Below the pieces are notes generated by a model, which searched no databases, was not told where the DNA came from, and saw only the letters and a list, made by a program, of their open reading frames with translations. Of a stretch of DNA of 64,000 nucleotides, positions 26,321 through 27,290 are shown piece by piece. This DNA comes from Escherichia phage BP9, in sequence record PP488543.1. One strand, 5' to 3'. Numbering within the stretch: the stretch's first letter is position 1; every line of letters begins with the position of its first letter. Position numbers and translations under genes: made by a program.

Positions 26321-26728
26321 ATGTCTAAAATGCTATATATCGTGCGTGGTCTACCAGGGTCTGGCAAATCAACACTGGCAAATGCGCTATCTTTAGAGGG
26401 TCTGTATCCACATTTTGAGAACGACATGTTCTGGTACGACGATGATGGAAATTACAACTGGGATGCAAGTAAAGTCACACTTGCAGCAAAATGGTGCAAA
26501 GATAACGTAGAAGATATGATGCGTATGGGATACGACCGTATCGTGGTAAGTAATACGTTTACAAAAGAAAAATATGTGCAAAAATATATTGACATGGCAA
26601 TCAGTTATGGGTATAGTTATACCGTAATCGTGGTTGAAAACCGCCACGGTAATAAAAGCATTCATGCTTCAGACGAGGTTGTGGATCGTATGGAACGCCA
26701 ACTTAAAAACTGCATTAAACTTAAATGA
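26321..26728 (+). CDS. polynucleotide kinase-like P-loop kinase
   Basis: P-loop GLPGSGKST right after start MSKMLYIV; GGAGGG SD 5 nt upstream; track ORF begins at TTG 26264 but ATG 26321 preferred. Confidence 0.65.
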   Translation: MSKMLYIVRGLPGSGKSTLANALSLEGLYPHFENDMFWYDDDGNYNWDASKVTLAAKWCKDNVEDMMRMGYDRIVVSNTFTKEKYVQKYIDMAISYGYSYTVIVVENRHGNKSIHASDEVVDRMERQLKNCIKLK

Positions 26729-26735
26729 GGAATGT

Positions 26736-27290
26736 ATGAAATACTTTGTAACAAGCGACACACACTTTCTCCACCAGCGGGTCATGGAGTTTGATTCATG
26801 TCAAAAACACAGATCTCAGTATGATCACAATCTTGACAGTATGAATGCGGGAATCATCGCCGAGTGGAACTCTGTTGTGTCACCTGCAGACACTGTGTTC
26901 CACTTGGGGGATATTGCGTGCACTAATGATAAGAATATCAACAACTTACTTCCAGATATTCTAAATATGTTGAACGGACATATTATTCTTGTTCGTGGCA
27001 ACCATGACACAAGGACGACTGTCAGAATTATGAAAGAGTTCTATCATGAGGTTGTAGATTATTACGAGCTTCGCCACAACAAGAATTTGATCTGTATGAG
27101 CCATTACCAATTTGCAAAGTGGAACAGAAAGCATCACGGATCAGTCCAACTGTTCGGTCATGCTCACGGAACCACACAACAGTTGTTTGGCAGGCAGCTT
27201 GATGTCGGTTGGGATGTGTGGGGGAGACTCTTACCATTAGAAGAGGCATACCGTATTGCAATGAGTTTTGCTATTGACAGCGGGGAGTAA
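26736..27290 (+). CDS. calcineurin-like metallophosphoesterase (candidate 3'-phosphatase)
   Basis: Motifs DTHF, GDI, GNHD, GHAH; start ATG 26736 with GAGGAA SD (track ORF starts earlier at 26634 overlapping kinase). Confidence 0.8.
   Translation: MKYFVTSDTHFLHQRVMEFDSCQKHRSQYDHNLDSMNAGIIAEWNSVVSPADTVFHLGDIACTNDKNINNLLPDILNMLNGHIILVRGNHDTRTTVRIMKEFYHEVVDYYELRHNKNLICMSHYQFAKWNRKHHGSVQLFGHAHGTTQQLFGRQLDVGWDVWGRLLPLEEAYRIAMSFAIDSGE

What the first reader, a model, noticed from the sequence alone, without database searches (positions are those of the whole stretch)
26321..27290. End-healing functions split into separate kinase and phosphoesterase genes
A 135-aa P-loop kinase gene is followed 8 nt later by a 184-aa calcineurin-like phosphoesterase gene. 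In T4 the 5'-kinase and 3'-phosphatase are fused in one Pnkp polypeptide with a HAD-type phosphatase; here the phosphatase would be a different fold (metallophosphoesterase), suggesting independent assembly of the same pathway.
Basis: partly seen in the sequence, partly recalled or inferred. Interest (0 to 1): 0.45.

Follow-up and report, generated by a model that had tools for sequence, protein, structure and literature searches.

The report
Split RNA-repair kinase and phosphoesterase genes
Two adjacent genes of a V5-like coliphage encode a small polynucleotide-kinase-like enzyme and a metallophosphoesterase that, with the RNA ligase gene next door, most likely mend RNAs (probably tRNAs) cut by host defences; the pair is real, but it is already annotated this way in sister phages and its neighbourhood has been described in the literature.

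Summary
A 135-aa P-loop kinase gene (26321-26728) is followed after 7 nt by a 184-aa metallophosphoesterase (MPE) gene (26736-27290) in a Vequintavirus (rV5-like) genome.

- **Kinase.** Its model superposes best on T4 Pnk, the Clostridium thermocellum Pnkp (CthPnkp) kinase domain, the tRNA kinase PSTK and Pnkp1. It keeps the P-loop, the catalytic Asp35, Thr79 and a lid Arg108.
- **MPE.** It keeps all five metal-binding motifs. It belongs to the uncharacterised Aquifex aq_1665 clade, not the lambda-phosphatase/CthPnkp clade.
- **Window neighbours.** A T4 Rnl1-like RNA ligase, a cREC protein, a sirtuin and a MazG-like protein are transcribed divergently. A tRNA cluster lies 3 kb downstream.
- **Linkage elsewhere.** Of 80 viral contigs carrying this kinase type, 50 have this MPE type and 37 an RNA ligase within 3 kb. 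In 80 bacterial genome loci the figures are 5 and 3.

Best explanation: a split 5'-kinase plus 2',3'-phosphoesterase end-healing pair that feeds the adjacent ligase. This is inferred, not assayed.

It is not new. BASEL phage records annotate the trio as polynucleotide kinase, phosphoesterase and RNA ligase. Iyer et al. 2022 described the phage V5 neighbourhood. MPE-based RNA end healing is established for bacterial Pnkp. What remains open is the biochemistry of the aq_1665-type MPE.

The parts
26264..26292 (+). sigma70-like promoter candidate (TTGAAA-17-TATACT) upstream of the kinase gene
   Evidence: Consensus scan, 10 of 12 matches. It is a pattern match only. A related record (phage Gotham) annotates promoters in this stretch.
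26310..26315 (+). Shine-Dalgarno GGAGGG, 5 nt before the kinase ATG
   Evidence: Read directly from the sequence.
26321..26728 (+). Stand-alone 135-aa P-loop kinase, predicted polynucleotide (RNA) 5'-OH kinase
26736..27290 (+). Stand-alone 184-aa binuclear metallophosphoesterase of the aq_1665 clade, predicted RNA 2',3'-cyclic/3'-phosphate esterase
25285..26220 (-). T4 Rnl1-like RNA ligase (311-aa ORF; relatives annotate the start 18 nt further in), divergent from the kinase
   Evidence: Pfam RNA_lig_T4_1, E 9e-15. The family profile hits T4 Rnl1 2C5U at E 2e-29, with K96, E155, E223-G224 and K239/K241 aligned to the KEDG, FE, EGYV and KIK motifs.
24938..25288 (-). cREC protein (predicted cyclic-phosphate-processing receiver domain), overlapping the ligase stop
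   Evidence: Pfam PF20274, E 1.7e-14. The predicted role comes from PMC7824862 and PMC9503650.
24168..24929 (-). Sir2-family protein, same operon direction as the ligase and cREC genes
   Evidence: Pfam SIR2, E 1.9e-27; phrog_2162.
23441..24154 (-). MazG-like nucleotide pyrophosphohydrolase (237 aa)
   Evidence: phrog_671, E 5.8e-22. No Pfam hit. Listed as part of the V5-type neighbourhood in PMC9503650.
30207..31146 (+). tRNA gene cluster 3 kb downstream: thematic context, not shown to be part of the module
   Evidence: ARAGORN finds 6 genes. Rfam finds 7 tRNA-type hits.

Best explanation
The two genes form a split RNA end-healing pair that serves the divergently transcribed Rnl1-like RNA ligase. 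Host anticodon nucleases and other metal-independent RNases leave 2',3'-cyclic-phosphate and 5'-OH ends. The 135-aa kinase would transfer a phosphate from an NTP to the 5'-OH end. Its predicted catalytic residues are P-loop K16/S17, general base D35, acceptor contact T79 and lid R108. The 184-aa binuclear metallophosphoesterase would open and remove the 2',3'-cyclic or 3'-phosphate, giving a 3'-OH. The ligase (adenylylated on K96) would then seal the break, as in the T4 Pnkp/Rnl1 pathway. The differences from T4 are that the kinase and phosphatase are separate polypeptides and that the phosphatase has the MPE fold instead of the HAD fold. In V5-like phages the cassette is extended by cREC, Sir2 and MazG. 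These may provide a second, NAD+-dependent route for 2'-phosphate ends, as Iyer et al. propose. What is shown: the genes, folds, conserved catalytic residues and gene linkage. What is inferred: the substrates, the order of the steps and the biological target (tRNA).
For: (2) Kinase catalytic residues. The HMM alignment puts family-invariant D35 on T4 Pnk D35 and T79 on the T of the T4 'SDTN' motif. hhalign against the T4-Pnk-like stand-alone kinases found in sister cassettes gives probability 96.6%, with D35/D34, T79/T82 and R108/lid R121 aligned.
(3) The MPE keeps every metal-binding motif across 32 homologues. Its model has pLDDT 94.7.
(4) Neighbour. The adjacent ligase is a T4 Rnl1-type enzyme with all of its nucleotidyl-transferase motifs.
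(5) Linkage, kinase-anchored. Of 80 viral loci, 50 have this MPE within 3 kb (27 directly adjacent on the same strand) and 37 have an RNA ligase: 24 Rnl1-like and 16 DRB0094/Rnl5-like. Collapsed at 80% identity, that is 32 and 23 of 52 clusters.
(6) Linkage, MPE-anchored. Of 80 viral loci, 43 have an Rnl1-like ligase within 3 kb and 29 a Pnk-type kinase.
(7) Minimal cassettes. MPE-ligase-kinase three-gene operons occur in phage contigs whose MPE is only about 42% identical to this one.
(8) Slot swapping. Kinase-plus-ligase loci that lack this MPE carry cREC, another Metallophos protein or a CCA/poly(A)-type nucleotidyltransferase.
(9) Control. In 80 bacterial genome loci with the same kinase family, only 5 have the MPE and 3 the ligase.
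(10) Precedent. An MPE-fold domain removes 2',3'-cyclic phosphate from RNA in bacterial Pnkp (PMC3675462).
(11) Dispensability. In the V5-like phage Bas54 the orthologues tolerate transposon insertion on E. coli K-12, as expected for a conditional anti-defence module.
Against: - There is no biochemical or genetic test of either protein or of any close homologue. The closest solved structure, aq_1665, is a structural-genomics 'hypothetical protein'.
- The kinase has no sequence-aligned counterpart of T4 Pnk R38, which (from my own knowledge) contacts the acceptor's 3'-phosphate. In the alignment R38 falls in an insertion.
- The same kinase family is abundant as a solitary gene in bacterial chromosomes with no RNA-repair neighbours, so the family as a whole may have other substrates.
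- The MPE's structural neighbours after aq_1665 are LpxH, YfcE, MJ0936 and the MPE ssDNA nuclease. These do not point to RNA 3'-phosphate chemistry.
- The window also encodes cREC and Sir2, for which Iyer et al. propose the cyclic-phosphate and 2'-phosphate steps. That leaves the MPE's step ambiguous.
- The Bas54 Tn-seq comparisons seen showed no conditional requirement for these genes.
Confidence: 0.7

Rival explanations
1. The MPE, and possibly the kinase, act on small molecules of an NAD+/ADP-ribose pathway rather than on RNA ends. In this reading Sir2 removes a 2'-phosphate from RNA by transfer to NAD+, in the manner of KptA. The MPE, cREC and MazG then degrade the resulting ADP-ribose cyclic phosphate or related nucleotides. 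The 'nucleotide kinase' recycles nucleotides.
For: Iyer et al. [quoted passage not shown] They also call the kinase a 'nucleotide kinase'. Sir2, cREC and MazG are present in the window.
Against: The kinase-MPE pair is conserved in many phage cassettes without these partners. Among 80 kinase-anchored viral loci, Sir2 was found in 0 and cREC within 3 kb in only 3 by my profile (a further two such loci had it by Pfam), while the MPE was found in 50 and an RNA ligase in 37. Minimal MPE-ligase-kinase operons exist. The kinase's closest structures are polynucleotide and tRNA kinases.
Confidence: 0.12
2. The pair processes DNA ends or acts as a nuclease. The MPE would be a Mn2+-dependent single-strand nuclease or end-trimming enzyme, like the ligase-associated PdeM/MPE nucleases. 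The kinase would phosphorylate DNA 5'-OH ends for the phage ATP-dependent DNA ligase encoded about 2.5 kb away.
Against: The recurrent neighbour is an RNA ligase of the Rnl1 or Rnl5 type, not a DNA ligase. Other neighbours in the same slot are RNA-specific: cREC and a CCA/poly(A) nucleotidyltransferase. The PdeM match is well below threshold.
Confidence: 0.08
3. The two genes are functionally unrelated accessory genes. For example, the MPE could be a cyclic-nucleotide or protein phosphatase that counters host signalling, and the kinase a nucleotide kinase. On this reading they merely sit side by side in an early-gene region.
For: MPE relatives include cyclic-nucleotide phosphodiesterases (Rv0805, GpdQ) at weak profile E-values. 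The kinase family is widespread as a solitary gene in bacteria. At about 35% MPE identity (P0165) the linkage to kinase and ligase is lost.
Against: The reciprocal linkage is far stronger in phages than in bacteria: 50/80 and 29/80 in viral loci against 5/80 in bacterial loci. It survives collapsing redundant contigs. Gene order varies (MPE upstream or downstream of the kinase) while the adjacency is kept.
Confidence: 0.06

Closest known systems
Bacteriophage T4 Pnkp + Rnl1 tRNA repair pathway
   Different: Here the kinase and phosphatase are separate polypeptides. The phosphatase is a binuclear MPE, not a DxDxT HAD acylphosphatase. The kinase lacks an aligned T4 R38. The ligase is shorter (311 aa against the 375-residue solved T4 Rnl1 chain), so its C-terminal region differs.
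Bacterial Pnkp of the Pnkp-Hen1 system (Clostridium thermocellum Pnkp)
Aquifex aeolicus aq_1665 (PDB 1XM7) / PHROG 547 phosphoesterases
   Different: aq_1665 has no assigned function. Most phage homologues end in a conserved ...DHH tail, which the V5-type protein lacks.
Sirtuin-centred RNA-repair neighbourhood of 'Escherichia phage V5 / Proteus phage Mydo' (Iyer, Burroughs, Anantharaman, Aravind 2022, PMC9503650)
   Same: [quoted passage not shown]
   Different: That paper centres the system on the sirtuin and treats the MPE as occasional. My neighbourhood counts show the kinase-MPE(-ligase) trio to be the widespread core and Sir2/cREC to be lineage-specific additions.
Stand-alone RNA 5'-OH kinases of Mucorales (MciKIN/RazKIN) and the fungal Trl1 kinase domain
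   Same: They are a precedent for a stand-alone end-healing kinase separate from its ligase and phosphoesterase. They are the best PDB sequence hits of the family profile, and they have an essential Asp at the equivalent position.
   Different: They are eukaryotic and GTP-specific, and they work with a 2'-PO4-requiring ligase. The sequence match is limited mainly to the P-loop region.

Membership tests
Polynucleotide 5'-kinase clade of P-loop phosphotransferases (T4 Pnk, CthPnkp kinase) | Walker A P-loop GxxxxGK[ST] | tested here: met
   G10-LPGSGKS-T18. G10, G13, G15, K16 and T18 are invariant in 35 homologues.
Polynucleotide 5'-kinase clade of P-loop phosphotransferases (T4 Pnk, CthPnkp kinase) | Catalytic Asp (general base; T4 D35) after strand 2 | tested here: met
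   Invariant D35 aligns with T4 Pnk D35 and with invariant D34 of the T4-Pnk-like phage kinases. The role of D35 in T4 is from established knowledge.
Polynucleotide 5'-kinase clade of P-loop phosphotransferases (T4 Pnk, CthPnkp kinase) | Acceptor-binding Arg three residues after the Asp (T4 R38, CthPnkp R41) | tested here: not met
   The sequence reads E33-N-D35-M-F-W38, and T4 R38 falls in an insertion of the alignment. An invariant R9 before the P-loop might substitute for it, but that is untested.
Polynucleotide 5'-kinase clade of P-loop phosphotransferases (T4 Pnk, CthPnkp kinase) | Lid arginine contacting the NTP phosphates (T4 R126, in RxxxR) | tested here: met
   Invariant R108 (in ENRHG) aligns with R121 of the RxxxRPGK lid of the T4-Pnk-like kinases in hhalign (probability 96.6%). 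The direct HMM alignment to T4 stops before this segment.
Polynucleotide 5'-kinase clade of P-loop phosphotransferases (T4 Pnk, CthPnkp kinase) | Closest fold neighbours are polynucleotide kinases | tested here: met
Polynucleotide 5'-kinase clade of P-loop phosphotransferases (T4 Pnk, CthPnkp kinase) | Phosphorylates 5'-OH ends of RNA/DNA | not testable with these tools
   Needs an enzyme assay.
Binuclear metallophosphoesterase (calcineurin-like) superfamily | Five metal/phosphate-binding motifs: DxH, GD, GNH[D/E], H, GHxH | tested here: met
   D8xH10, G58D59, G88N89H90D91, H123 and G141H142xH144; all except D91 (at least 90% conserved) are invariant in 32 sequences. Pfam Metallophos is above its cut-off.
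Lambda-phosphatase / CthPnkp 2',3'-phosphatase clade of MPEs | GDxxDRG motif II, with the phosphate-binding Arg (CthPnkp R237), and closest fold match to lambda phosphatase/CthPnkp | tested here: not met
aq_1665-type small MPEs (PDB 1XM7; PHROG 547) | Full-length sequence and fold similarity | tested here: met
T4 Pnkp (bifunctional kinase-HAD phosphatase) | C-terminal DxDxT acylphosphatase domain fused to the kinase | tested here: not met
   The kinase ORF ends at residue 135 and has no HAD domain. All kinase ORFs in the 80 viral loci are 107-162 aa.
T4 Rnl1-type RNA ligase (the neighbouring gene 25285-26220) | Nucleotidyl-transferase motifs I, III, IV and V (T4 K99, E159, E227/G228, K240/K242) | tested here: met
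   K96, E155, E223-G224 and K239/K241 are invariant in 16 homologues. They align with the KEDG, FE, EGYV and KIK motifs of 2C5U. The T4 residue numbers are from my own knowledge.
Phage RNA repair (healing and sealing) cassette | Conserved gene linkage of kinase, 3'-phosphoesterase and RNA ligase | tested here: met
   against the bacterial control.

The most novel reading that the evidence does not exclude
The aq_1665-type metallophosphoesterase would be a third, biochemically unrecognised family of RNA 2',3'-end-healing enzymes, after the HAD and lambda-like MPE phosphatases. Paired with a small stand-alone kinase that lacks the canonical acceptor-binding arginine, it would form a portable two-gene healing unit. 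Phages would combine this unit at will with Rnl1-type or Rnl5-type ligases. In V5-like phages it would run in parallel with a cREC/Sir2 NAD+-dependent branch, so that one locus can repair both cyclic-phosphate and 2'-phosphate RNA ends.
Probability: 0.45. Interest if true: 0.45.

Novelty: already known. Interest (0 to 1): 0.28.

Why it matters
tRNA cleavage is a common bacterial anti-phage strategy, and RNA healing-and-sealing is the classic phage answer to it (T4 Pnkp/Rnl1 against PrrC). Two points follow from this window.

- V5-like coliphages, and many uncultured phages, carry a modular version of that pathway. It is built from a stand-alone kinase and an MPE of a clade with no assigned function.
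- This gives the structural-genomics orphan aq_1665 (1XM7) family a testable function.

For this window the result is mostly a confirmation. The genes are already annotated as polynucleotide kinase, phosphoesterase and RNA ligase in sister phages, and the neighbourhood is published as a predicted RNA-repair system. The practical gain is a sharper hypothesis: kinase-MPE is the conserved core, and Sir2/cREC are add-ons. This is not a discovery.

Tried and rejected
- **Wrong start coordinate.** Translating the MPE from 26737, as implied by '8 nt later', gave 11 stops. The true start is 26736.
- **Single-sequence PDB searches.** The ligase found nothing, and the kinase only a P-loop match. Profiles were needed.
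- **First locus search failed.** The 32-sequence MPE alignment had no stretch conserved enough for the locus search. A 10-sequence alignment worked.
- **Kinase-MPE and kinase-ligase fusions.** I found none among the ORFs of the 80 kinase-anchored viral loci or in the length and Pfam lists of the homologue searches. Only the PHROG profile phrog_8238 hints at a kinase...ligase fusion elsewhere.
- **Conserved bacterial neighbourhood of the kinase.** There is none beyond lineage-level synteny.
- **Membership of the lambda-phosphatase/CthPnkp clade.** Rejected on fold rank and motif II.
- **Literature on aq_1665.** Three incidental mentions, no functional study.
- **Burroughs & Aravind 2016 RNA-repair survey.** It could not be retrieved, so I could not check whether it already names this MPE clade.
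- **Bas54 transposon data.** It shows dispensability only. In the comparisons I saw, these genes had no conditional phenotype.

Full report
**Where the window comes from.** The 2-kb stretch 25285-27290 is 100% identical to Escherichia phage vB_EcoM_YN3. It is 90-99% identical to 118 further records, almost all of them V5-like coliphages (Vequintavirus). In BASEL phage JohannBauhin the same three genes are annotated 'RNA ligase', 'polynucleotide kinase' and 'putative phosphoresterase'. Other records call them hypothetical, AAA ATPase, or '3'-phosphatase, 5'-polynucleotide kinase'.

**The observation.** Both ORFs are present on the + strand.
- The kinase gene runs from ATG 26321 to TGA 26728 (135 aa). 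A GGAGGG Shine-Dalgarno sequence lies at 26310-26315, and a sigma70-like site at 26264-26292.
- The phosphoesterase gene runs from ATG 26736 to TAA 27290 (184 aa).
- The spacer is 7 nt, not 8.
- Pfam gives AAA_33 (40.8 bits, cut-off 27) and Metallophos (28.5 bits, cut-off 21.5).

**The kinase.** The best 120 are nearly all stand-alone proteins of about 130 aa.
- Thirty-five of them share invariant R9, the P-loop G10xxGxGK16(S17)T18, D35, N78-T79, E83 and an E106-N107-R108-H109 motif.
- The family profile's best PDB sequence hits are the stand-alone RNA 5'-OH kinases of Mucorales, then Pnkp1 and T4 Pnk.
- In the HMM alignment, D35 falls on T4 D35 (the general base) and T79 on the T of the T4 SDTN motif. 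T4 R38 has no aligned counterpart.
- hhalign against a second, T4-Pnk-like family of stand-alone kinases from sister cassettes gives 96.6% probability. It aligns D35, T79 and R108 with that family's invariant D34, T82 and lid R121.
- The protein is therefore a credible polynucleotide kinase, with one canonical residue missing.

**The phosphoesterase.** All five binuclear-metal motifs are invariant across 32 homologues of 31-62% identity, apart from D91 at the end of motif III, which is conserved in at least 90%. The model is very confident (pLDDT 94.7).
- Motif II (HLGDIAC) lacks the DRG of the lambda/CthPnkp clade.
The clade, however, is not the one already known to heal RNA ends.

**Neighbours in the window.** Transcribed divergently from the kinase, starting about 100 nt away, are four genes.
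- A 311-aa RNA ligase (Pfam RNA_lig_T4_1). Its family profile hits T4 Rnl1 at E 2e-29, with every nucleotidyl-transferase motif conserved.
- A cREC protein (PF20274).
- A Sir2 protein.
- A MazG-like pyrophosphohydrolase.

A tRNA cluster lies 3 kb downstream of the MPE gene.

**Linkage elsewhere.** I anchored neighbourhood counts on each protein in turn.
- **MPE-anchored.** Of 80 viral contigs (MPE 33-63% identical), 43 carry an Rnl1-like ligase within 3 kb, 36 of them within 1 kb and every detected ligase on the same strand. Twenty-nine carry a Pnk-type kinase: 11 of the window's type and 18 of the T4-Pnk-like type.
- **Kinase-anchored.** Of 80 viral contigs (42-50% identical), 50 carry the MPE within 3 kb, 27 of them directly adjacent in either order. 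Thirty-seven carry an RNA ligase: 24 Rnl1-like and 16 of the OB-fold + PF09414 (DRB0094/Rnl5-like) type. My profile found cREC within 3 kb in 3 loci, and Pfam showed it in two more. Sir2 was found in none.
- **After removing redundancy.** Collapsing at 80% identity leaves 21 of 37 clusters (MPE with ligase) and 32 of 52 clusters (kinase with MPE).
- **Minimal operons.** MPE-ligase-kinase operons occur in contigs whose MPE is only about 42% identical.
- **Loci without this MPE.** Kinase-plus-ligase loci that lack it carry cREC, a different Metallophos protein or a CCA/poly(A)-type nucleotidyltransferase in the same place.
- **Bacterial control.** In 80 bacterial genome loci with the same kinase family, only 5 have the MPE and 3 the ligase. 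No conserved neighbour exists there.
- No kinase-MPE fusion was found.

**Mechanism.** The best-supported reading is a T4-like heal-and-seal pathway assembled from separate parts.
1. The kinase phosphorylates the 5'-OH end.
2. The MPE removes the 2',3'-cyclic or 3'-phosphate.
3. The Rnl1-like ligase seals the break.

The genes, folds, catalytic residues and linkage are shown. The substrates, the order of steps and the cellular target (tRNA cut by host anticodon nucleases) are inferred. The cREC/Sir2/MazG genes look like a lineage-specific extension. Iyer et al. propose that they resolve cyclic phosphates and remove 2'-phosphates with NAD+. That leaves some ambiguity about which 3'-end step the MPE performs in this particular phage.

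**Rivals.**
- The MPE and kinase work on ADP-ribose-derived small molecules, as Iyer et al. suggest as an alternative. This is disfavoured because the pair is conserved without Sir2 or cREC.
- The pair processes DNA ends or is a nuclease (weak PdeM and MPE-nuclease similarity; a DNA ligase nearby). This is disfavoured because the recurrent partner is an RNA ligase.
- The two genes are unrelated accessory genes. This is disfavoured by the reciprocal linkage.

**Comparison with what is known.**
- MPE-fold 2',3'-phosphatase healing is established for bacterial Pnkp (PMC3675462, PMC2190708).
- Stand-alone RNA kinases are known in Mucorales (PMC11571804).
- This very neighbourhood ('Escherichia phage V5 and Proteus phage Mydo': sirtuin, T4-like tRNA ligase, cREC, nucleotide kinase, MazG, occasionally a calcineurin-like phosphoesterase) was published as a predicted RNA-repair system (PMC9503650).
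- A transposon screen of the V5-like phage Bas54 shows the orthologues of ligase, kinase, MPE, cREC and Sir2 tolerating insertions on E. coli K-12. No significant change appeared in the host comparisons I could see. This fits an accessory, conditionally useful module, but it does not test the function.

**Verdict.** The finding is already known at the level of annotation and comparative genomics. What my analysis adds is modest.
- The MPE is of the uncharacterised aq_1665 clade rather than the CthPnkp/lambda clade.
- The kinase-MPE pair, not the sirtuin, is the widely conserved core.
- The pair is joined to two different RNA ligase families.

No biochemistry exists for either protein family in phages. 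I set interest at 0.28.

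Noticed in passing
window 30803-30899 (+): An unusually long (97-99 nt) tRNA-like gene. ARAGORN reports a 4-base anticodon and Rfam scores it only 31 bits. The anticodon loop reads TTTTTAA, which gives Lys(UUU), and there is a long extra arm. The sister phage annotates it as tRNA-Lys. tRNA-Lys is the classic target of the anticodon nuclease PrrC, so an atypical phage copy next to an RNA-repair cassette may be meaningful.
   Followed up: partly
window 30412-30496 (+): A tRNA detected by Rfam (39 bits) but missed by ARAGORN. It lies between the tRNA-Arg and tRNA-Ser genes; by its place in the cluster it may correspond to the 87-nt gene annotated tRNA-Tyr in phage JohannBauhin, but I did not align the two.
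   Followed up: no
window 27264-27290 (C-terminus of the MPE): Most phage homologues of the MPE end in a conserved ...DHH tail. The V5-type protein ends ...IDSGE and lacks it. The role of the tail is unknown.
   Followed up: no
window 26589-26617 (+): The best sigma70-like match in the region (TTGACA-17-TATAGT, 11 of 12) lies inside the kinase gene, about 120 nt upstream of the MPE start. It could give the MPE its own transcript, but it is a pattern match only.
   Followed up: no
window 27338-27688 (+): The 116-aa HTH protein just downstream (DUF6945/HTH_36; PHROG 'replication initiation protein') has very few transposon insertions in the Bas54 orthologue: mean 13.6, against 88-406 for the repair genes. 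It may therefore be important for growth, unlike its neighbours.
   Followed up: partly
PHROG phrog_8238 (matched by window 26321-26728 and 25285-26220): One 737-position phage profile named 'RNA ligase' matches the kinase at positions 2-109 and the ligase at 441-686. This implies that a fused kinase-X-ligase protein exists in some phages. The middle part did not match this MPE.
   Followed up: no
GenBank records MG065635, MG065653 and others (hits to window 25285-27290): Eighteen records named 'Campylobacter phage' (16 of all matching records give Campylobacter jejuni as host); the two listed (C12, C14) are 97% identical to this coliphage region. This is probably mislabelling or contamination.
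   Followed up: no
loci L177, L197, L200, L201, L243; L232, L237; L230: Phage loci with the same kinase and an RNA ligase, but without the aq_1665-type MPE, carry something else in the equivalent place: a cREC protein, a different Metallophos protein or a CCA/poly(A)-polymerase-type nucleotidyltransferase. The 3'-end slot of the cassette appears interchangeable.
   Followed up: partly
loci L087-L166 (bacterial genomes): The same roughly 130-aa kinase family is common as a solitary chromosomal gene in Bacteroidota, Vibrio, Halomonadaceae and others, with no conserved neighbour. Its cellular role there is unexplained.
   Followed up: partly
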